From: an uncultured Eubacteriales bacterium
Lineage (GTDB): Bacteria; Actinomycetota; Coriobacteriia; Anaerosomatales; PHET01
Length of the DNA: 64,000 nt
NCBI GenBank assembly: GCA_964403885.1
Contig: CAYOHY010000007.1
Location: 5,635 to 69,634 of the forward strand
Direction: 5' to 3'
Shown: positions 11,755 through 19,069 of the stretch, piece after piece
How the letters are laid out: each line of letters begins with the position of its first letter
How positions within the stretch are numbered: position 1 is the first letter of the stretch
Position numbers and translations under genes: made by a program
Notes under the pieces: generated by a model
Seen by the model: only the letters and a program-made list of their open reading frames with translations
What the model was told of the DNA's origin: nothing
Databases searched by the model: none

Positions 11755-13284
11755 TCAGTCCATGGAGGCGGGCAGGGTGACCGTGAACGTGGTCCCCTCC
11801 CGAGAGCTTTCCACTTCGATGTGCCCGTCATGCTCATCGATGATCCTGTGCACGATCGTGAGACCAAGCCCCGTACCCTCGGCGCGCTTGGTGAAGAAGG
11901 GGTCGAACACTTTGCTGAGGTCGTTGGGATCGATGCCGGGCCCGTCGTCGACCACCGAGACGACCACGTAGTCCTGGTCCCCGGCGGCGTGTATCGAGAT
12001 CGCTCCGCCGGTCTCATCCATCGCTTGGACCGCGTTGGTGACCAGGTTCAAGAACACCTGCTTGAGCTGATCGGGGTCTCCGGCCACCCGGGGTAGGTCT
12101 TCGGGAGCCTCCAGCGTGATGTAGACATCGGCCTGCCGAGCGAACCGGTTGGTGAACAGCACCACGTCCTCCAACACGCTCGCAAGGTCGGTGTCCACGA
12201 GCGTTGGCTTGCTCGGGCGACCGAAGTCCAGCAGCGCCTTGATGACCTTGTCGAGCCGGTCGATCTCTTGCTTGATGACCTCTGCCGCATCATGGATGCG
12301 CACCGGATCGCAGTTCGCGTCCTCGAGCAACTGCACGCTCGCGCGGATGACGCCGAGCGGGTTTCGGACCTCGTGAGCGACACCGGCCGTGAGCTCACCC
12401 ATCGCCGCCAGCCTGTCGGCCCGGATGAGTTGATCGGTGAGCGCCTTGATGTCGGATACGTCCTCGAGGGTCACGACGGCGCCAAGAACGCTTCCACCCA
12501 CCGCCCTCATCCGGGACGTGGACGCTTGCACGTGAAGCTCCGTGCCGTTGGGAGTGACCAGCGTGGCTTCGCGCAGCGCGAGAGGCATCCGGCCGGAGAG
12601 CACCTTGGCCACGTCGGCCGACAGGCCGGCGTCGTCGCGGAAGATGGCACCGATGGGCTTGGGCACCATCTCGAACTCGGACATGCCCAGCATTCGCTCG
12701 GCTGATGGGTTCGCGGTCGCAACCGAGCCGTCAGGGCCCACCGTGAGCACTCCCGAGGTGATGGAGCGCAGGATCGATGAGGTGTAGTCCTGCACGTTGA
12801 TGAGCTGGATCGCGCGCTCTTCCAGCTTGCGGTAGGCCTCCTCGAGCTGAAGCGACACCTGACGCAGATCCTGCGTCTTGGCCTCCTCGATGTCGCGGAC
12901 CGCACCAAAGAGCAGACCGATCAAGAAGTACGAAGCGACTTCGATCGCGTTGTCGAACCCCAACCCCAGCTGCGAGTTGAGCGACAGCTCCGCATGGATC
13001 ATGAACGGCACCGACGCTGCGGTCGCGGCGATGACCCCTCCCCGCTTGCCGAACACCCACGCGGCATAGATGACCGGGATGAAGTACAGGCGCCGGTAGA
13101 GGAGGTGAAGCGGGATACTGCCCGGAACCACGTTGGTGAACAGATGCAGCATGGTGATGAACACGAGCATGACAGCGATGACAGCGATGGCTCGCACGTC
13201 TCGCGAGCGTGCGGCATCGCCCACGTCCTCACCGTTGGAGCGCGGTGCAGGGCGCCGAGGCAACCCTATCCGTTCAGGCGTCAT
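11755..13284 (-). CDS. Membrane sensor histidine kinase (multi-TM N-domain, PAS, HisKA, HATPase)
   Basis: H-box AAMGELTAGVAHEVRNPL, N-box NLVTNAVQAM, G boxes DDGPGI and GTGLGL. Four or five N-terminal hydrophobic helices without a large external loop. Start set at ATG 13284, forming an ATGA overlap with the rpoN stop. Confidence 0.85.
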   Translation of the reverse strand: MTPERIGLPRRPAPRSNGEDVGDAARSRDVRAIAVIAVMLVFITMLHLFTNVVPGSIPLHLLYRRLYFIPVIYAAWVFGKRGGVIAATAASVPFMIHAELSLNSQLGLGFDNAIEVASYFLIGLLFGAVRDIEEAKTQDLRQVSLQLEEAYRKLEERAIQLINVQDYTSSILRSITSGVLTVGPDGSVATANPSAERMLGMSEFEMVPKPIGAIFRDDAGLSADVAKVLSGRMPLALREATLVTPNGTELHVQASTSRMRAVGGSVLGAVVTLEDVSDIKALTDQLIRADRLAAMGELTAGVAHEVRNPLGVIRASVQLLEDANCDPVRIHDAAEVIKQEIDRLDKVIKALLDFGRPSKPTLVDTDLASVLEDVVLFTNRFARQADVYITLEAPEDLPRVAGDPDQLKQVFLNLVTNAVQAMDETGGAISIHAAGDQDYVVVSVVDDGPGIDPNDLSKVFDPFFTKRAEGTGLGLTIVHRIIDEHDGHIEVESSREGTTFTVTLPASMD

Positions 13285-14675
13285 CGACGGCGCCTCGCCC
13301 ACGAGGGTTCGATGCCGAGCTCCTCACGGTACTTGGCGACGGTGCGGCGGGCGACGGTCACGCCCTCGTCCGACAGGATCTCGGCGAGCTTCTGATCGGA
13401 GAGTGGTTTGGCGATGTCCTCGGCTTTGACCAAGTCACGCAGCCGCTGCTTGATCGTGGTGGCGGCGACGTCCATCCCCTGCGCGGTGCGGTAGCCGCCG
13501 CTGAAGAAGTGCTTGAGCTCGAACAGTCCGTACGGCGTGGCCATGTACTTGCCGGTCACGCCTCGCGACACCGTCGACAGGTGCACACCGATCTCCACCG
13601 CCACGTCCTCGAGCCGCAGGGGCCTGAGCGGGCCCTTGCCGTCCTCGAAGAAGTCACGCTGGACGTCGATGATGATCTCGGTGATCCGGCTGACGGTGTC
13701 CTTGCGGCGATCGACATTCTTGATGAAACTCTCCGCCGATCGGATCTTGTCCTTGAGATAGCGCTTGGTCTCGTCGTCGGCGGTCGATCCGGTCTTGAGC
13801 ATGGCGCGGTAGCGCGGAGACACCCTCAACGTGGGCAGCGCCTCGTTGTTGGGGATGATGAGCCAGTCGTCGTCGAAACGCCGTAGCGTCACGTCCGGCA
13901 CGATGTAGCCTGGCGACGGACCGGGCGAGAACGCACCGGCAGGACGCGGGTTGAGAGCCTTGAGTATCTCGACGAGCCGGCGGACCTCTGCCTCATCGAC
14001 ACGGAGGGCACGAGCGACCTTGCGGAAGTGGTTCGATGCGATGTCGTCGAGATGCTCTTTCACGATACGCATGAGAAGCGGCTCGTCGATGCCCAGGAAC
14101 TCCATCTGGAGGCACATCGCCTCGGCAAGGTCACGGGCAGCGACACCGGGCGGATCGAGCTGCTGGACCGCCTTCAAGCCGGCCTCGGCAGCCTGCTCAT
14201 CGACACCCACGAGCGCTGCGACCTCGGCGAGTGAGCCCCTGAAGAATCCGTCGTGGTCGAGCGAGCCGATCACGGCTTGGGCTGCGTGCTGTGTGTCCTC
14301 ATCGATGTCAAGCAGCGCGAGCTGGTCGAGTAGATAGTCGTCAAAGCTCTGAACGCCGCCGACGAACTCCTCGGTGTTGGCCTGCTCGGCGTTTGGATCG
14401 CGAGGAGACGTGGTCTCTATCTGGTCGAGATCCTCGTACATCTCGATCCACTCGTCCCAGGATCGTTCATCCTCGGCGGAGTCCTCGGTGGGCTCTTCGC
14501 CCTCGACGGGCTCGCTGTCGGTCTCGTCGACCTCGAGGACCGGGTTCTCGAGCATCTCGACTTCGATGAGCTGCTGAAGCTCGGCGACGGGCATCGCGAG
14601 GATGTTCAGCCCCTGGTAGACCTGGGGCGAGAGTGTCACCTTCTGGCGCAGCTCGGGGCGCTGCTGGAGATCCAT
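13281..14675 (-). CDS. rpoN: RNA polymerase sigma-54 factor
   Basis: N-terminal MDLQQRPELRQKVTLSPQ (region I), an acidic region II, and a C-terminal RpoN box ARRTVAKYRE. Start at ATG 14675 with GGGAGGGGG upstream. The track ORF start (14894) is an Arg-rich extension. Confidence 0.9.
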   Translation of the reverse strand: MDLQQRPELRQKVTLSPQVYQGLNILAMPVAELQQLIEVEMLENPVLEVDETDSEPVEGEEPTEDSAEDERSWDEWIEMYEDLDQIETTSPRDPNAEQANTEEFVGGVQSFDDYLLDQLALLDIDEDTQHAAQAVIGSLDHDGFFRGSLAEVAALVGVDEQAAEAGLKAVQQLDPPGVAARDLAEAMCLQMEFLGIDEPLLMRIVKEHLDDIASNHFRKVARALRVDEAEVRRLVEILKALNPRPAGAFSPGPSPGYIVPDVTLRRFDDDWLIIPNNEALPTLRVSPRYRAMLKTGSTADDETKRYLKDKIRSAESFIKNVDRRKDTVSRITEIIIDVQRDFFEDGKGPLRPLRLEDVAVEIGVHLSTVSRGVTGKYMATPYGLFELKHFFSGGYRTAQGMDVAATTIKQRLRDLVKAEDIAKPLSDQKLAEILSDEGVTVARRTVAKYREELGIEPSWARRRR

Positions 14676-14725
14676 TGCCGCCCCCTCCCGTGGTACTCGC
14701 GGGCCGCATCGGGAGCGCGACCCTC

Positions 14726-14741
14726 TGCAAGAATCATACCA
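14726..14741 (-). promoter_or_regulatory. Promoter candidate upstream of rpoN (ambiguous: sigma-54-like TGGTAT-N5-TTGCA or extended -10 TGgTATGAT)
   Basis: The minus strand reads TGGTATGATTCTTGCA. GG-N10-GC spacing is correct, but the same bases also read as an extended -10 element (TGnTATGAT). About 50 nt upstream of the rpoN ATG. Confidence 0.35.
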
Positions 14742-14763
14742 CTTTCTGGGAGGTCTCTGACGC

Positions 14764-15732
14764 CTACTCCTGTGGAGGAATCGTGGGGAGCGGGTCCTTC
14801 TCGGGCAGCTGTATGACCGCGATCGCCGCGATGACCATCGCCCCGCCCACCAGCTGAGACACCGTGAGCGCCTCACCAAAGAGCAGGAAGGCACCCAGAC
14901 CCGCGATCACGGGCTCGACCGTCGAGGTGACCGTGGCGTTGGTGGGCGGAATGAGCCGCAACGCGACGAGGAAGGCGCCGAACGGGATGATGGTGCTCAC
15001 AACGGCCATGAACAGCACCGCTGCCGCGGTCCCGGGGTCCGCGAATGCGCTGAGCACCTTCATCGGACCCAGCACGAGAAGCCAGAACGCCGCCGCGAAC
15101 CCCAGACCGAAGACCAGCGTCGTGAATGGCCTGAACCGGCGGGCCGCCACACTGCCCATGAGGGAGTACGTCGCGAAGAACGCCGCCGAGGTCAGACCCC
15201 ACGCGATACCGGCCGGCGAGACGGCGAGCCCCTCCCCGCTCAGGGCACCGACGACGAGCGCACAGCCGCTGACCGACAGCGCCACACCCGCGGGAAGCGT
15301 CCAGGTGAGCTTGTGGCGCAAGAACAGCACGCTCACGATCAGCACGATGACCGGCGCCATGTACTCCAGCAGAATCGCGGTCGCCACGCTCGTGAGCGAG
15401 ATCGTCTTGAAGTAGGTGTAGTGCACGCCGGCAAGCCCGACCACGCCGAATACTGCGAGAAACGGTATGTCCTTGCGTTCGACACGCAAGGCGTCGCGCT
15501 GGGCGAAGAGCAGGTATGCGATGAGCAGCACGAACGCGGACAGGGCACGACCCGCGGACAGGACCGTGGGCTCGATGGTGATCCCGAGCGGAGGAAACGG
15601 CCACTGTGCGGTCTCGGGCGAGGGCTGACTGAACAGCCACTTCGCCATCAGCCCGCCACTCGCCCAGCACGTCGCAGCCAGCAGCGCGAGCCCGTATCCT
15701 TTGAGCCGGTCGGCCTTAGCTTGTGCGTGCAT
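14764..15732 (-). CDS. EamA/DMT-family transporter (10-TM)
   Basis: Two repeated 5-TM halves, each with an EamA-like pattern (ATCWASGGL..., VATAILLEYMAPV...). Overlaps the CDF gene by 17 nt. Confidence 0.8.
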   Translation of the reverse strand: MHAQAKADRLKGYGLALLAATCWASGGLMAKWLFSQPSPETAQWPFPPLGITIEPTVLSAGRALSAFVLLIAYLLFAQRDALRVERKDIPFLAVFGVVGLAGVHYTYFKTISLTSVATAILLEYMAPVIVLIVSVLFLRHKLTWTLPAGVALSVSGCALVVGALSGEGLAVSPAGIAWGLTSAAFFATYSLMGSVAARRFRPFTTLVFGLGFAAAFWLLVLGPMKVLSAFADPGTAAAVLFMAVVSTIIPFGAFLVALRLIPPTNATVTSTVEPVIAGLGAFLLFGEALTVSQLVGGAMVIAAIAVIQLPEKDPLPTIPPQE

Positions 15733-16681
15733 CGAGCTCCGCTTGGGTCTTGCTCGCTTGGTACTCGTCGTAGGGTTCGAGATGTGCGATCACGTCGACG
15801 ACCTGCGGGAACTCCGTGGCGATGGTGCGCTCCACGTCCTCGGCGATGCGGTGTCCGTCAGCCACGGTACGGGTCTCGTCCACCTGCACGTGCAGATCGA
15901 CGTAGACCTCGGCCTCGGAACCGCGCGTGCGCACGTGGTGACAGCCCAAGACTCCCGCGACCGACATCGTCACGGCACAGATGTCGGCGACAGGGATGCG
16001 GGCAGAGTCGGACAGCGTTGCACTGGCCTGCTTGAACACGCCCCACGCCGTGTACACGATCGCGATCGCGACAAGGCCTGCCACGATGGGGTCGGCTTTG
16101 AGCAGAAGGTCGTTCCCGGTCACCTCGCCGATCTTGACCAGCGCGAGCGAGAGCAAGACGCCCAGGCTGACGAGGATGTCTGAAGCCGTGTGGCTCGCAT
16201 CGGCGACGAGGATCTCCGAGCCCAACCGCTTGCCCACGCGACGCTCGTACGTGGTGATGAACACGTTGATACACAGCGTGATGATCATGATGGCGAACGA
16301 CGCAGCGGTGACGTTGGGCGCCACCGCCTCGCCTGTCAGCTGTTGAACCGCGCTCGAGCCGATGCGATACGCGGCAAACAGGAGCATGGCGCCGATCGCG
16401 GCCGATGCGTACGTCTCGTACTTGCTGTGCCCGTAGGGGTGGTCATGGTCGGCGGGGCGCGCCGCGAGTCCCATGCCCACCAGCCCCACGACGTTGCTCG
16501 TGCCGTCGAACAGCGAGTGGAACCCGTCCGCCTGCATCGCTGCGGAGTGGATGTAGGTGCCGTAGGCCAGCTTCGACAGGGCGACGCCAAGGTTCAGGAA
16601 CAAGATGATCCACAGCACCCTGCGGATCTCCCTGATGCGGCTCGCACCCACCTCCGCGCCGTTGGTCTTGGTATAGCCCAC
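15716..16681 (-). CDS. Cation diffusion facilitator (CDF) family metal efflux protein
   Basis: Six-TM N-domain with the HSAAMQADGFHSLFD and ILVADASHTASD metal-site motifs (HxxxD / HxxxD) and a C-terminal cytoplasmic domain. GTG start with a G-rich RBS. Confidence 0.85.
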   Translation of the reverse strand: MGYTKTNGAEVGASRIREIRRVLWIILFLNLGVALSKLAYGTYIHSAAMQADGFHSLFDGTSNVVGLVGMGLAARPADHDHPYGHSKYETYASAAIGAMLLFAAYRIGSSAVQQLTGEAVAPNVTAASFAIMIITLCINVFITTYERRVGKRLGSEILVADASHTASDILVSLGVLLSLALVKIGEVTGNDLLLKADPIVAGLVAIAIVYTAWGVFKQASATLSDSARIPVADICAVTMSVAGVLGCHHVRTRGSEAEVYVDLHVQVDETRTVADGHRIAEDVERTIATEFPQVVDVIAHLEPYDEYQASKTQAELDARTS

Positions 16682-16708
16682 AGCCCGTCGCCCCTCTCTC
16701 GGACACGC

Positions 16709-16737
16709 TTGCGCTAGATACCCCTAGGGGGCATAGT
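16709..16737 (+). promoter_or_regulatory. Sigma-70-type promoter with embedded CsoR-type operator (csoR-like gene; shared divergent region with CDF)
   Basis: The plus strand reads TTGCGC-tag-ATACCCCTAGGGGGCAT-AGT: -35 TTGCGC, a 17-nt spacer and -10 CATAGT. The palindrome lies in the spacer. The -10 ends 42 nt before ATG 16780. Confidence 0.55.
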
Positions 16738-16779
16738 GAACGTATCGGTACGACCTACGGTAGCAAACCGGAGCCTAAG

Positions 16780-17373
16780 ATGCCCGAGATTCCCACGCCC
16801 ATAACCGTCCCCAACGCGGACGAGCGACGCAAGATCGTCAACAGGCTTCGACGCCTCGAGGGGCAGGTCCGCGGCCTGCACGCGATGATCGAGTCGGGCA
16901 AGGAGTGCGAGGCCGTCCTCACGCAGGTCATGGCCGTGAAGTCCGCGCTCAACCAGGTGGGCATGCACGTCATCGGCCACGCCATGAAGACGTGCCTTGT
17001 GGACGAGTCGCTCACTGCGCGTGATGATCTCATCACCGCCGCGTTCGATGTCTACCTGCACTACCGGGAGCTGAGCGCGGCGACCGAGGCAGCCGCAACC
17101 CCCCGAGACACCTCACCCGAGTTCATCAAGGCGAAGCTCAAGACCCTCGAGGCACAGGTGCAGTCGGTTCAAAACGTCATCGAGACCGAAGGCGACTGCG
17201 AGAGCGCGCTGCGTGGTGTCACGGAGTCCACGGCCACGCTCAACGATGTCGCGCGGGCGGTCTTGGGACACGCGATGCAAAAATGCCTGATCGATGACGC
17301 CGCACAGTCTCGAAACGACGTCATCGACCAGGCAATACAGGTCTTCTTGCGCTACTCCTCGTGCGTCAAGTAG
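16780..17373 (+). CDS. csoR: Tandem-duplicated CsoR/RcnR-family metal-sensing repressor (two DUF156 domains in one chain)
   Basis: Domain 1: IVNRLRRLEGQVRGLHAMIESGKECEAVLTQVMAVKSALNQVGMHVIGHAMKTCL. Domain 2: KLKTLEAQVQSVQNVIETEGDCESALRGVTESTATLNDVARAVLGHAMQKCL. Both keep the Cys...His...Cys positions. 197 aa, against the usual 90-110 aa. Confidence 0.85.
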   Translation: MPEIPTPITVPNADERRKIVNRLRRLEGQVRGLHAMIESGKECEAVLTQVMAVKSALNQVGMHVIGHAMKTCLVDESLTARDDLITAAFDVYLHYRELSAATEAAATPRDTSPEFIKAKLKTLEAQVQSVQNVIETEGDCESALRGVTESTATLNDVARAVLGHAMQKCLIDDAAQSRNDVIDQAIQVFLRYSSCVK

Positions 17374-17383
17374 TGGACCGCGT

Positions 17384-17707
17384 CTAACCGCCCAGGCCCA
17401 GCTCCCGATACAACGCGTCCGCGTTACGGGCGCCCACCACGGTGGCGGTCACCTTGCCGCCCTCGAACTTCGCGATCGTGGGGATGCTCATGACGCCGTA
17501 TTCGATGGCGACCTCTCGGGCCTCGTCGATGTTGAGCTTCACGAACTTGGCTCCGTCGCCCACCCGCGCGGCCAACTTGTCCACTTCAGGGGCCACCATG
17601 CGGCACGGGCCACACCACGGGGCCCAGAAATCAACGACAACGGGCTTGTCGGACAGCAGAACCTCGTCATCGAACGACTTGGCGGTTATCTCCATCGCTG
17701 CACTCAT
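17384..17707 (-). CDS. trxA: Thioredoxin
   Basis: WCGPC active site in DFWAPWCGPCRMVAP. A 107-aa protein from ATG 17707, with AAGGAGA upstream. The track start (17797) is an upstream extension. Confidence 0.9.
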   Translation of the reverse strand: MSAAMEITAKSFDDEVLLSDKPVVVDFWAPWCGPCRMVAPEVDKLAARVGDGAKFVKLNIDEAREVAIEYGVMSIPTIAKFEGGKVTATVVGARNADALYRELGLGG

Positions 17708-17833: not shown

Positions 17834-19069
17834 GTGGATCCGACACGACTCACATGGCTGGCTTTGATCGCGGGCGCGCTGGCGGCCGGCGCGGCCGTCG
17901 TGGGCATCCTCGTCGTGCGTCGGCGCCTCGAAGTTGTGGTGGCGATCATCGGATCCGTCGGCGCGGTGAGCGCATTCACCGCGTCAGCGAGATTGACCGC
18001 TCACTACGAGCGCCCTGAAGCAGCCGTCTGGTCGCTCGTCTTCGTGTTTGCCGCGGGTGCCGGAGGCTATGCGCTCGCCTCAACGCTTCTGTATCGGCTC
18101 GCTCGCGAGGCGGGTCATCCCACGATGAGCCGCGAGGGAGCCCCCGCACGCGATCGTGCGGCGGTCGTCCTGACCGCCTGCGCCGAGCCGGCTCACTACG
18201 ACCCCGGCGCCACCGCTCAGATGCTGCAGTCGCTGGCCGACGAGGGGCTGCTCGAACCCTCTGTCGGTGCGTTGCCGCTCTTGTTCTTCGGTCAGAAGGC
18301 CCGCTACCGGGCCGCAGGTGACGTGAGTCCCGCTATGGCCGGCCTTCGGGCGGTGGCCGAGCACCTCGAGGAGACTCTCGCGGACACGGCTGATGTGTCG
18401 ACAGCGACGTGCTCGGGCGACGGCTCCCTCGCCGACGTGGTGGCCCTGGCGGCACAGGCCGGGTACCGCCGAATCGTGATCTGCGTGCTCGCCGTGGGAG
18501 AGTCCATGCACATGGACATGGCGCGCGGCGCAGTGGAACAGCTTCGCCTGGGCGAGTCCGGGGTGACGGTCGTCTCCACGGGCGCCCTGTGGTCATCCGA
18601 ACGGATCATCTCGGCCCTCACCCAACGCATCATGCACGGCGTGGATGACCCGGCCGCCACAGGGGTCGTGCTGGTCGGCCACGGGCAACCGGAGGAGCGA
18701 GCGAGAAGACACCGCTCCTTCGACGAGCAGGAGATGGCGTTTCTGAGCAGGCTTCGGATGGCCCTGGCCGATCGAGGACTGTCCGAGGACTGGGTGCGCA
18801 TCGCATGGGACGACTGGACCGAGCCCGACGTCACCTCGGCGGTCAGGCACCTTGCGGCGCTGGGCGCGAAGCGCGTTCTCGTGGTACCGGCGACGTTTCC
18901 TCTCGACACGCTCGGGACTCGGCTCGACCTTGAGATCGCAGTCCGTCAGGCCCGAGTGAACGAGGGCGTCGCAGTCATCACGATGGCGGCATGGCGCGAC
19001 AGTGACGCGGTGATCGAGGAGTTGCGCAGCCGAGTAATAGCCGCGCTGGAAACACCAGCGGGCGCCTAG
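17834..19069 (+). CDS. Membrane-anchored class-II-chelatase-like protein (ferrochelatase/CbiX-like fold, divergent)
   Basis: Start set at GTG 17834, with GGGAGGAG 6 nt upstream. About 3 N-terminal TM helices. A soluble part follows, with VVLVGHGQP, RVLVVPATFPLDTLGTRLDLEI and overall two-lobe colinearity with ferrochelatase/CbiX as I recall them. Assignment is tentative. Confidence 0.5.
   Translation: MDPTRLTWLALIAGALAAGAAVVGILVVRRRLEVVVAIIGSVGAVSAFTASARLTAHYERPEAAVWSLVFVFAAGAGGYALASTLLYRLAREAGHPTMSREGAPARDRAAVVLTACAEPAHYDPGATAQMLQSLADEGLLEPSVGALPLLFFGQKARYRAAGDVSPAMAGLRAVAEHLEETLADTADVSTATCSGDGSLADVVALAAQAGYRRIVICVLAVGESMHMDMARGAVEQLRLGESGVTVVSTGALWSSERIISALTQRIMHGVDDPAATGVVLVGHGQPEERARRHRSFDEQEMAFLSRLRMALADRGLSEDWVRIAWDDWTEPDVTSAVRHLAALGAKRVLVVPATFPLDTLGTRLDLEIAVRQARVNEGVAVITMAAWRDSDAVIEELRSRVIAALETPAGA

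What the first reader, a model, noticed from the sequence alone, without database searches (positions are those of the whole stretch)
16780..17373. CsoR/RcnR-family repressor duplicated in tandem within one polypeptide, with an H-x4-C ligand spacing in both halves
The 197-aa protein contains two full DUF156-type helical-bundle domains, at roughly residues 10-95 and 115-197. They are joined by an Ala/Thr/Pro-rich linker (HYRELSAATEAAATPRDTSPEFIKA). Family members are normally about 90-110 aa and assemble as dimers of dimers, with the metal site built across the subunit interface. A covalent pseudo-dimer would fix the pairing and allow the two sites to diverge. Both halves keep the first Cys (ECEAV / DCESA) and a GHAM(K/Q)(T/K)C motif. 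Here the His lies five residues before the last Cys. As I recall, M. tuberculosis and B. subtilis CsoR have H-x3-C. The effector (Cu(I), another metal, or persulfide) therefore cannot be read off the sequence.
Basis: partly seen in the sequence, partly recalled or inferred. Interest (0 to 1): 0.6.

Follow-up and report, generated by a model that had tools for sequence, protein, structure and literature searches.

The report
Tandem-duplicated CsoR-family repressor, asymmetric halves
This gene encodes a metal/thiol-sensing repressor of the CsoR family in which two copies of the normally separate subunit are fused into one chain; only the first copy keeps the DNA-contact residues, which makes it a natural test case for how these four-part repressors divide their work.

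Summary
ORF 16780-17373 (+) encodes 197 aa with two PF02583 domains, scoring 82 and 40 bits separately; the halves are 39% identical. It is not an assembly artefact. At least 44 full-length homologues exist, all in uncultured Coriobacteriia-type MAGs.

The gene occupies a locus where 71 of 80 related species carry a ~100-aa single-domain orthologue. The locus order is sigma54–EamA–CDF <> regulator – thioredoxin – chelatase.

The H-x4-C spacing is real in both halves, but it is inherited from the single-domain ancestors. The His is replaced by Tyr/Phe/Arg/Asn in many members, so it is probably not an obligatory ligand. Five Cys are invariant: C43, C72, C140, C169 and C-terminal C195.

The halves have split the ancestral features. 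The N half keeps the α1 RLxR…GQ DNA-contact motif. The C half has lost it but keeps the ancestral α3 and the C-terminal Cys.

At least seven independent tandem CsoR lineages show the same polarity.

A classic type-2 CsoR operator (ATACCCC-N-GGGGGTAT) sits between the -35 and -10 of the gene's own promoter, facing the CDF–EamA operon, in 80 of 84 loci.

The effector is unresolved. A thiophilic divalent metal is favoured and a persulfide/oxidant is the main rival. This is a new variant of a known kind.

The parts
16780..17373 (+). Gene for the 197-aa tandem-domain CsoR-family repressor (stop codon included)
   Evidence: ORF list and sequence. PF02583 gives two stretches. 44 full-length homologues.
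16810..17088 (+). N-terminal CsoR domain (residues 11-103: α1 11-38, α2 43-71, extended α3 81-103). It keeps the RLxR…GQ DNA-contact motif (N21 R22 L23 R25 G28 Q29 R31 G32), Q49, K54, H63, C43 and C72. It has lost the ancestral C-terminal YSSC tail.
   Evidence: 82.4 bits alone. Helices from AF2. Invariant columns. α1-α2 is 72% identical to single-domain orthologues, α3 only 35%.
17089..17115 (+). Short inter-domain loop (residues 104-112, AATPRDTSP), variable in sequence
   Evidence: AF2 secondary structure and pLDDT. Poor column conservation.
17116..17370 (+). C-terminal CsoR domain (residues 113-197: α1' 113-135, α2' 140-170, α3' 178-191 plus tail). It keeps C140, C169 and the C-terminal C195 (YSSCVK). 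It has lost the RLxR…GQ motif, K54 and the H63 equivalents.
   Evidence: 39.9 bits alone. α1-α2 is 36% identical to single-domain orthologues, α3 66%. C140/C169/C195 are 44/44.
16718..16734 (.). Type-2 CsoR operator ATACCCCTAGGGGGCAT (pseudopalindrome with TAC/GTA dyads flanking C/G tracts)
   Evidence: Unique in the window at up to 3 mismatches; expected 0.02 by chance. ATACCCC-N1-3-GGGGGTAT sits at the same position in 80/84 related loci. It matches the Streptomyces CsoR consensus ATATACCCCTNAGGGGTATAT (PMC3902906).
16709..16737 (+). Inferred promoter of the regulator gene: -35 TTGCGC (16709-16714), a 17-nt spacer filled by the operator, -10 CATAGT (16732-16737)
   Evidence: A conserved cTTGc 5-7 nt before the operator, and TAT of the right operator arm starting a TAnnnT hexamer, in about 80 loci. 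It falls below the threshold of the generic promoter scan, so it is inferred from conservation only.
15716..16681 (-). Divergent CDF cation-efflux gene, the likely regulated target. Site A residues are H-D (TM2) and H-D (TM5).
   Evidence: PF01545 plus PF16916. Best NCBIfam match is Zn_efflux_Cdf31 at 227 bits, below the equivalog cut-off of 460. Alignment to YiiP 2qfi. Present next to the regulator in 87/93 loci.
14764..15732 (-). EamA/DMT-family transporter gene overlapping the CDF gene by 17 nt, so probably in the same operon
   Evidence: PF00892 x2. TIGR00950 at 110 bits, below cut-off. Present in 88/93 loci, including those without the CDF.
17384..17707 (-). Thioredoxin gene, convergent, ending 10 nt after the regulator's stop codon. 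It is a conserved neighbour with no operator of its own.
   Evidence: TIGR01068 at 112.6 bits, above cut-off 96.8. Present in 82/93 loci. There is only one operator in the window.

Best explanation
The gene encodes a single-chain pseudo-dimer of the CsoR/RcnR family. It arose by internal duplication of a ~100-aa single-domain repressor that occupies the same locus in most related Coriobacteriia.

Shown:
- Both halves are family members.
- The architecture is conserved in at least 44 homologues.
- The halves have partitioned the ancestral features. The N half keeps the α1 RLxR…GQ / α2 Gln-Lys DNA-contact residues. The C half has lost them but keeps the ancestral α3 and the C-terminal Cys.
- Both halves keep the X and Z cysteines.
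- A canonical type-2 CsoR operator lies in the -35/-10 spacer of the gene's own promoter, 37 bp from the divergent CDF–EamA operon. The operator is the same for single-domain and tandem forms.

Inferred:
- The chain folds into an intrachain antiparallel four-helix bundle (N·C), equivalent to a CsoR dimer. Two chains then associate into a pseudo-tetramer.
- The operator is still a two-fold palindrome needing two RLxR motifs about 40 Å apart on one face. The two N halves must therefore lie on the same face, giving a repressor with one DNA-binding face instead of two (D2 reduced to C2).
- The protein represses its own gene and the CDF–EamA operon. It is released when the inter-domain cysteine pairs (C43·C169 and C140·C72, with C195 near the latter) bind or react with the effector.
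- The most likely effector is a thiophilic divalent metal exported by the HD-HD type CDF (Zn/Cd, possibly Co/Ni). This is the weakest step.
For: Domain identity.

Fold: AF2 pLDDT 87.4 and pTM 0.82, with six helices and a 9-residue loop. Each half matches FrmR, CsoR and CstR chains at TMt 0.62-0.73.

Conservation: 44 homologues with invariant C43, C72, C140, C169 and C195. The N-half α1 is invariant and the C-half α1 is variable.

Orthology with single-domain genes in the same synteny.

Mosaic retention: α1-α2 identity is 0.72 for N versus single and 0.36 for C versus single. For α3 it is 0.35 for N versus single and 0.66 for C versus single. In single-domain orthologues R22, R25, Q29, R31, K54 and Q59 are 66/66, and the C-terminal Cys is 66/66.

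Same polarity in independent tandem lineages P0129/P0220, P0141, P0145/P0170, P0182, P0258 and P0203. The sensor Cys are kept in both halves in all of these except P0203 (W at Z in both halves, D at X in its C half) and, as aligned, the X position of P0170's C half.

Operator: unique in the window and conserved in 80/84 loci between a conserved TTGc and a TAnnnT.

Published work on S. lividans CsoR (PMC3902906):
- RLXR (R54, R57) and Q81 are essential for DNA binding.
- There are two RLXR motifs per tetramer face, about 40 Å apart, matching the TAC/GTA dyads.
- A half-site does not bind.

CDF: HD-HD site A, and the closest NCBIfam model is a zinc exporter.
Against: - No quaternary-structure prediction was possible. 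Only single chains can be modelled and no coordinates are returned. The intrachain pairing and the 'one face' arrangement are therefore inferences.
- The CDF association comes from a single lineage-wide synteny, so it amounts to about one independent observation. Six loci keep the regulator and EamA without the CDF.
- More distant members of the H-x4-C / C-terminal-Cys clade sit in unrelated contexts with no transporter.
- The formal fingerprint x-C-x-C is the one the 2021 SSN study associates with persulfide sensors (PMC8643695).
- No His is reliably available as a metal ligand.
- The CDF promoter was not identified.
Confidence: 0.55

Rival explanations
1. Same architecture, but the effector is a reactive sulfur species or oxidant, as for CstR. 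The inter-domain Cys pairs form di- or polysulfide cross-links, C195 acts as an extra or resolving thiol, and the neighbouring thioredoxin resets the switch.
For: The canonical Y position is Ala/Ser, so the fingerprint is x-C-x-C. All five Cys are invariant while the nearby His is dispensable. x-C-x-C clusters, including an actinomycete one, are assigned to persulfide sensing (PMC8643695; PMC11672702). A thioredoxin gene lies 10 nt downstream in 82/93 loci. CstR dimers react asymmetrically, which a hard-wired pseudo-dimer could exploit.
Against: No sulfurtransferase, persulfide dioxygenase, SQR or TauE gene lies in the conserved neighbourhood. The only genes sharing the operator region are a CDF metal exporter and an EamA transporter. 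The thioredoxin has no operator. The CstR wedge Asn is absent.
Confidence: 0.25
2. The chain does not form an intrachain pseudo-dimer. Instead N pairs with N' and C pairs with C' of a second chain (domain-swapped bundles). This would give two symmetric N·N' sites with DNA contacts and two C·C' sites without.
For: Only a monomer could be modelled, which forces intrachain packing. Invariance of all four X/Z Cys fits either pairing.
Against: The model is confident as a single compact unit (pTM 0.82), with only a 9-residue loop between α3 and α1'. By helix direction (α3 runs parallel to α1 and antiparallel to the partner's α1'), the end of α3 and the start of the partner's α1' lie at the same end of a CsoR dimer bundle. 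A short loop therefore suits intrachain pairing; this is an inference from topology.
Confidence: 0.12
3. It is a classical Cu(I)-sensing CsoR that merely happens to be duplicated.
For: The operator is essentially the Streptomyces CsoR consensus. The best PDB sequence match is a Cu(I)-CsoR. Three invariant thiolates could form a trigonal Cu(I) site.
Against: The Y-position His that defines x-C-H-C is absent. No CopA or CopZ lies in the conserved locus; a CDF, which is not a Cu(I) exporter, is the divergent gene.
Confidence: 0.07
4. Artefact: two adjacent csoR-like genes fused by a sequencing or assembly frameshift.
For: None found.
Against: There are 44 full-length homologues of 190-214 aa from independent JGI, ENA, NCBI and Logan assemblies, with the same single ORF and a conserved linker length. 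An identical protein is found on two further contigs. Nine species-level genomes carry it.
Confidence: 0.01

Closest known systems
Cu(I)-sensing CsoR of actinobacteria and Firmicutes (S. lividans CsoR 4adz/4uig, G. thermodenitrificans CsoR 4m1p, B. subtilis CsoR; SSN cluster 1, x-C-H-C)
   Same: PF02583 three-helix domain. RLxR…GQ α1 motif and conserved α2 Gln in the N half. X and Z cysteines 29 residues apart. Practically the same type-2 operator (ATACCCC-N-GGGGTAT) overlapping the promoter, with autoregulation.
   Different: Two domains in one chain. The C half lacks the DNA-contact motif. The Y-position His is replaced by Ala/Ser, with a dispensable His/Tyr one residue earlier. There is an extra invariant C-terminal Cys. 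The partner gene is a CDF–EamA operon, not copZA.
CstR-type persulfide sensors (S. aureus, E. faecalis, S. pneumoniae CstR 7mq1/7mq2; SSN clusters 3, 4, 10, x-C-x-C)
   Same: The formal x-C-x-C fingerprint with two invariant Cys per domain. Published functional asymmetry between the two sites of a dimer, which this protein hard-wires.
   Different: No cst-type sulfur-detoxification genes nearby. No wedge Asn. A third invariant Cys at the C-terminus. Tandem architecture.
RcnR/DmeR Ni/Co sensors (E. coli RcnR; rhizobial DmeR–DmeF)
   Same: A CsoR-family repressor divergent from, or upstream of, a metal exporter. In DmeRF the exporter is a CDF.
   Different: The H-C-H-H fingerprint is absent: there is no N-terminal His, no Y His, and Z is Cys. 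The operator is type 2, not the type-1 TACT-G6-N-AGTA.
Other natural tandem CsoR-family proteins found here (e.g. Clostridiales NLZ49778.1 = P0141; P0145/P0170, P0182, P0258, P0129/P0220, P0203, P0217)
   Same: Two PF02583 domains in one chain. The N half keeps the DNA-contact motif and the C half loses it. The sensory residues are kept in both halves.
   Different: These are independent duplications, since the N and C halves of each lineage are each other's closest relatives. Most have the canonical H-x3-C or a CstR-like motif. All are uncharacterised.

Membership tests
CsoR/RcnR superfamily (Pfam PF02583, DUF156) | Sequence match to the family profile above the curated threshold | tested here: met
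   Whole protein 112.8 bits, N half 82.4 bits, C half 39.9 bits, against a cut-off of 22.8.
CsoR/RcnR superfamily (Pfam PF02583, DUF156) | Three-helix α1-α2-α3 protomer fold | tested here: met
   AF2 gives two sets of three helices. Foldseek matches to FrmR 5lcy, SlCsoR 4uig, CstR 7mq1 and GtCsoR 4m1p cover one half each at TMt 0.62-0.73 and probability 0.9-1.0, although the E-values are weak, as is usual for short helical folds.
CsoR/RcnR superfamily (Pfam PF02583, DUF156) | α1 RLxR motif plus conserved α2 Gln needed for operator binding | tested here: met
   Met in the N half (R22-L-R-R25, G28-Q29, Q49; 44/44). Not met in the C half (K119/T122 here, variable across the family). The role of the motif comes from PMC3902906.
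CsoR/RcnR superfamily (Pfam PF02583, DUF156) | G/C-tract pseudopalindromic operator at the regulated promoter | tested here: met
   ATACCCCTAGGGGGCAT at 16718-16734, conserved in 80/84 loci.
CsoR/RcnR superfamily (Pfam PF02583, DUF156) | Dimer-of-dimers (D2 tetramer) assembly of ~90-residue protomers | not testable with these tools
   Only single-chain prediction is available. The expected equivalent is a dimer of 197-aa chains.
Cu(I)-sensing CsoR (x-C-H-C) | His at the Y position, four residues before the Z Cys | tested here: not met
   Y is Ala68/Ala165 here and Ser/Ala in orthologues. The His lies at Z-5 and is replaceable by Tyr/Phe/Arg/Asn.
Cu(I)-sensing CsoR (x-C-H-C) | copA/copZ in the genomic neighbourhood | tested here: not met
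   The neighbours are CDF, EamA, thioredoxin and a chelatase in 82-90 of 93 loci.
RcnR/DmeR (H-C-H-H) | N-terminal His (W), Y His and Z His | tested here: not met
   There is no His in residues 1-33, Y is Ala, and Z is Cys.
CstR persulfide sensors (x-C-x-C) | Two conserved Cys (X, Z) without a Y His | tested here: met
   C43/C72 and C140/C169 are 44/44, and Y is Ala/Ser.
CstR persulfide sensors (x-C-x-C) | Neighbourhood encoding sulfide/sulfite detoxification enzymes | tested here: not met
   No such Pfam families occur in 13 annotated loci.
CstR persulfide sensors (x-C-x-C) | Reaction with persulfides giving inter-protomer polysulfide cross-links and DNA release | not testable with these tools
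   A biochemical assay is needed.
FrmR (P-C-H-x) | Conserved Pro2 next to α1, and a Y His | tested here: not met
   Pro2 is present in this protein, but the position is variable in the family (T10 S9 P8 A7). It is also 9 residues before α1, and Y is Ala.

The most novel reading that the evidence does not exclude
Two linked claims remain possible.

(a) Covalent duplication converts the two-faced D2 CsoR tetramer into a one-faced C2 pseudo-tetramer. Evolution has reached this solution repeatedly, in at least 7 lineages and always with the C-terminal copy giving up DNA contact. This would reveal that one DNA-binding face and two RLxR motifs are sufficient, and that the four sensory sites can be wired asymmetrically to it.

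(b) This Coriobacteriia clade (x-C-x-C plus an invariant C-terminal Cys, coupled to an HD-HD CDF) is a natural Zn/Cd-responsive branch of the CsoR family using an all-thiolate site. Neither the 2024 review nor the 2021 SSN study lists such a specificity for the family.
Probability: 0.25. Interest if true: 0.7.

Novelty: new variant of a known kind. Interest (0 to 1): 0.5.

Why it matters
CsoR-family repressors are symmetric homotetramers, and three questions about them remain open. How many protomers and which face contact DNA? How many of the four sensory sites must be filled? Are the sites intrinsically asymmetric?

A natural single-chain pseudo-dimer separates the roles genetically. One half carries the DNA contacts, and both halves carry sensor cysteines that can be mutated independently. 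That is impossible in a homo-oligomer.

Single-domain orthologues exist at the same locus and with the same operator in sister genomes. This offers a matched natural comparison of the two architectures.

The repeated, same-polarity decay of the C-terminal copy across independent duplications suggests a general structural rule for the family.

The practical significance is modest. The organisms are uncultured and the effector is unknown.

Tried and rejected
1. Frameshift or assembly fusion: rejected by the homologue set.
2. H67/H164 as essential ligands: rejected by substitution patterns in tandem and single-domain orthologues, and by the lack of correlation with CDF presence.
3. Complementary loss of His in one half or the other. 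Only 1 of 44 proteins lacks both, against about 3 expected under independence. This is not significant and the sequences are phylogenetically non-independent, so no claim is made.
4. H63 as a co-ligand with C72. Both lie on one helix 9 residues apart, which is too far. H63 is also lost in C halves together with the DNA-contact residues, so it more likely belongs to that surface (inference).
5. A second operator elsewhere in the 64-kb window, for instance at the thioredoxin/chelatase promoters: none at up to 3 mismatches.
6. Generic sigma-70 promoter and terminator scan of 16600-17500: nothing reached threshold. The promoter is inferred from cross-locus conservation only.
7. Inverted-repeat finder on the intergenic region: it missed the operator because the arms are too short for its seed, and returned only an irrelevant pair.
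8. Foldseek against PDB for a full-length analogue: none, only half-length matches. AFDB50 was not available.
9. Supplementary tables of the 2021 SSN paper, to place the protein in a numbered cluster: not held.
10. Context of more distant H-x4-C / C-terminal-Cys relatives (P0134, P0164), to infer the effector: unrelated housekeeping neighbours, uninformative.
11. Cluster-member names for those relatives: nearly all unnamed metagenomic proteins.
12. Literature searches for tandem, fused or pseudo-dimeric CsoR, and for a Zn-responsive CsoR with a CDF: nothing relevant beyond DmeR–DmeF.
Full report
**What is there.** The ORF at 16780-17373 (+) is real, 197 aa, with ATG preceded by GGAG.

- Pfam PF02583 (Trns_repr_metal) matches twice, at 112.8 bits overall.
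- Scored separately, residues 1-99 give 82.4 bits and residues 100-197 give 39.9 bits. Both are above the 22.8-bit gathering score.
- The halves align to each other at 39% identity over 77 residues (E 1e-20).
- NCBIfam sees only sub-threshold similarity to RicR, FrmR and RcnR.
- PDB sequence matches (GtCsoR 4m1p, 6ahx, InrS 5fmn, FrmR 5lcy, CstR 7mq1/3, SlCsoR 4adz, MtCsoR 2hh7) all fall on the N half.
- In the alignments that were printed (4m1p, 6ahx, 5fmn), which are ungapped, the canonical His lies one residue after the query His.

**Not an artefact, and where it lives.** A search of 5.8 billion proteins returned about 50 two-domain homologues of about 197 aa, down to 36% identity. They were followed by ~110-aa single-domain relatives that are 55-70% identical to one half.

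A scan of 185,579 species-representative genomes returned 80 loci, all from uncultured Coriobacteriia/Anaerosomatales-type MAGs. Nine carry the tandem gene and 71 carry a single-domain gene.

Every locus has the same synteny: PAS kinase, sigma-54, EamA, CDF <> regulator, thioredoxin (convergent), ferrochelatase-like, PHP, aminotransferase. Across 93 loci the counts are CDF 87, EamA 88, Trx 82 and chelatase 90. The tandem protein is therefore the positional orthologue of a single-domain repressor.

**Anatomy of the two halves.** In 44 aligned tandem proteins the invariant residues are C43, C72, C140, C169 and C195 (in the tail YSSCV[KRS]), plus the N-half α1 segment N21-R22-L23-x-R25-L26-x-G28-Q29-x-R31-G32.

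The equivalent C-half segment (residues 118-129) is variable.

| Region | N half vs single-domain | C half vs single-domain |
|---|---|---|
| α1-α2 | 72% identical | 36% identical |
| α3 | 35% identical | 66% identical |

These figures come from comparison with 66 single-domain orthologues. The C-terminal Cys is present in 66/66 single-domain proteins, 11/11 C halves and 0/11 N halves. R22, R25, Q29, R31, K54 and Q59 are 66/66 in single-domain proteins and are lost in C halves. Each half has thus kept a complementary part of the ancestor.

AlphaFold2 on the family alignment gives a confident single unit (pLDDT 87.4, pTM 0.82). The helices are 11-38, 43-71, 81-103, then a loop at 104-112, then 113-135, 140-170 and 178-196. 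No full-length analogue exists in the PDB; each half matches FrmR, CsoR or CstR chains.

**The H-x4-C motif.**

- It is inherited. Single-domain orthologues carry GH[SA]MKxC, and a wider clade carries (I/V)HLISHRM(R/K)ECL…FLKYVQCV(R/K).
- The His is not conserved as a ligand should be. It is His in 33/44 tandem N halves (Tyr 11) and 31/44 C halves (Arg 9, Asn 4). In single-domain proteins it is His 46, Tyr 19, Phe 1. Tyr occurs in 17 loci that still have the CDF.
- The canonical Y position is Ala/Ser.
- The formal W-X-Y-Z fingerprint is therefore x-C-x-C, with an additional invariant C-terminal Cys.

**DNA target.** A 17-bp pseudopalindrome, ATACCCCTAGGGGGCAT (16718-16734), is unique in the window.

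The consensus ATACCCC-N1-3-GGGGGTAT is found at the same place in 80 of 84 non-redundant loci, for single-domain and tandem genes alike. It is preceded by a conserved cTTGc, and its right-arm TAT starts a TAnnnT hexamer. The operator therefore fills the -35/-10 spacer of the regulator's own promoter. In the window it lies 37 bp from the start of the divergent CDF gene, which overlaps EamA by 17 nt.

It is essentially the Streptomyces CsoR type-2 consensus ATATACCCCTNAGGGGTATAT (PMC3902906).

That study showed the following:
- The α1 RLXR arginines and the conserved α2 Gln are essential for binding.
- Each tetramer face carries two RLXR motifs about 40 Å apart, matching the TAC/GTA dyads.
- A half-site does not bind.

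**Mechanism proposed.**

- Shown: a conserved tandem CsoR-family protein; a conserved symmetric operator at its promoter; DNA-contact residues only in the N half; sensory Cys in both halves.
- Inferred: the chain forms an intrachain N·C bundle equivalent to a CsoR dimer. α3 runs parallel to α1 and so ends at the same end of the bundle as the partner's α1' begins, which suits the 9-residue loop.
- Inferred: two chains form a pseudo-tetramer. The palindromic operator still needs two RLxR motifs on one face, so both N halves should sit on the same face. That leaves the opposite face inert (D2 reduced to C2).
- Inferred: effector action at the inter-domain Cys pairs (C43·C169 and C140·C72, with C195 expected near the latter) releases the protein. 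This derepresses its own gene and CDF–EamA.

**Effector.** The CDF has an H-D/H-D site A in alignment with YiiP, and its best NCBIfam match is a zinc exporter, though below the cut-off. By analogy with RcnR–RcnA, DmeR–DmeF and CsoR–CopA, this favours a metal, and the all-thiolate site favours a thiophilic one (Zn/Cd, perhaps Co/Ni).

Four points weigh against this:
- The CDF linkage is one lineage-wide synteny.
- Six loci lack the CDF.
- Distant clade members sit in unrelated contexts.
- x-C-x-C is the fingerprint of persulfide sensors (PMC8643695), and a thioredoxin gene is a tight neighbour.

I put metal at about 0.5, persulfide/oxidant at about 0.25, and other at about 0.25.

**Recurrence.** Among the best 150 representatives from an exhaustive HMMER search (2,949 hits at E ≤ 1e-3 in 1.84 billion representatives), 17 have two domains. 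A tree of separated domains shows that P0141, P0217, P0203, P0182, P0258, P0145/P0170 and P0129/P0220 are duplications independent of this family.

In all of them except the very recent P0217, the N half keeps R-x-x-R…G-Q and the C half has lost it. The X and Z sensory residues persist in both halves in most of them. The exceptions are P0203 (W at Z in both halves, D at X in its C half) and, as aligned, the X position of P0170's C half. A simple reason for this polarity is that the linker is attached just upstream of the second α1, where DNA would bind; this is an inference.

**History within the clade.**

- A tree of four flanking genes (1,146 columns) never groups the three tandem-bearing groups. 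This held in 0/100 bootstraps, with at least 25 single-domain genomes lying between them.
- By contrast, the C halves of those groups are monophyletic in 89/100 bootstraps of the domain tree.
- Possible explanations are one duplication followed by repeated collapse to a single domain, lateral replacement at the conserved locus, or long-branch attraction. This was not resolved.

**Comparison and verdict.** The protein is a member of the CsoR/RcnR superfamily by profile, fold, motif and operator. It is not a member of the x-C-H-C, H-C-H-H, H-C-H-C or P-C-H-x subgroups. It shares the x-C-x-C fingerprint of CstR-like proteins but not their genomic context.

I found no published description of tandem CsoR proteins.

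It is a new variant of a known kind. It is of moderate interest as a natural tool for dissecting asymmetry and DNA-face usage in this family.

Noticed in passing
L014-L093 versus window 16780-17373: Tandem and single-domain forms of the regulator alternate at one conserved locus in a way that conflicts with the flanking-gene tree. The tandem groups are never monophyletic (0/100 bootstraps), yet their C halves are monophyletic in 89/100. This suggests repeated collapse to a single domain or lateral allele replacement.
   Followed up: partly
Proteins P0129, P0141 (NLZ49778.1, Clostridiales), P0145, P0170, P0182, P0203, P0217, P0220, P0258: At least seven independent tandem duplications occur elsewhere in the CsoR family, most with the canonical H-x3-C or a CstR-like motif. 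In each diverged case the C-terminal copy has lost the RLxR…GQ DNA-contact motif. P0217 has nearly identical halves, indicating a very recent duplication.
   Followed up: partly
window 16718-16737: The window's operator departs from the clade consensus in its right arm (GGGGGCAT instead of GGGGGTAT). This also weakens the overlapping -10 hexamer (CATAGT instead of TATAnT).
   Followed up: no
window 13281-14894 (-): A sigma-54 (RpoN) gene with all three Pfam domains in relatives, preceded by a PAS histidine kinase, is part of the conserved synteny in these Coriobacteriia-type Actinomycetota MAGs. The listed ORF is over-extended at its 5' end (537 aa against about 465 aa called in relatives).
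   Followed up: no
window 17834-19069 (+): The 'ferrochelatase' neighbour (411 aa; PF00762 with a faint CbiX hit) matches the NCBIfam ferrochelatase model only weakly (28 bits against a cut-off of 408). It also has a hydrophobic N-terminal region. It may be a membrane-anchored class II chelatase of unknown metal specificity.
   Followed up: no
L007 4602-5220; L009 4623-5264; L012 4355-4705: In some relatives a DUF302 gene, and sometimes a small Zn-ribbon gene, is inserted between the regulator and the thioredoxin gene. In L009 the thioredoxin is missing.
   Followed up: no
L010, L068, L069, L081, L084: Five species have lost the CDF gene but keep the regulator, its operator and the EamA transporter directly divergent from it. 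EamA may therefore be the more constant regulated partner.
   Followed up: partly
L094 4001-4351; L095 4001-4375: More distant single-domain relatives with the same His(-9)/His(-5)/Cys pattern, some of which also carry the C-terminal Cys tail, are encoded next to housekeeping genes (lysA, hom) with no transporter. The sensor motif is therefore older than the CDF association.
   Followed up: partly
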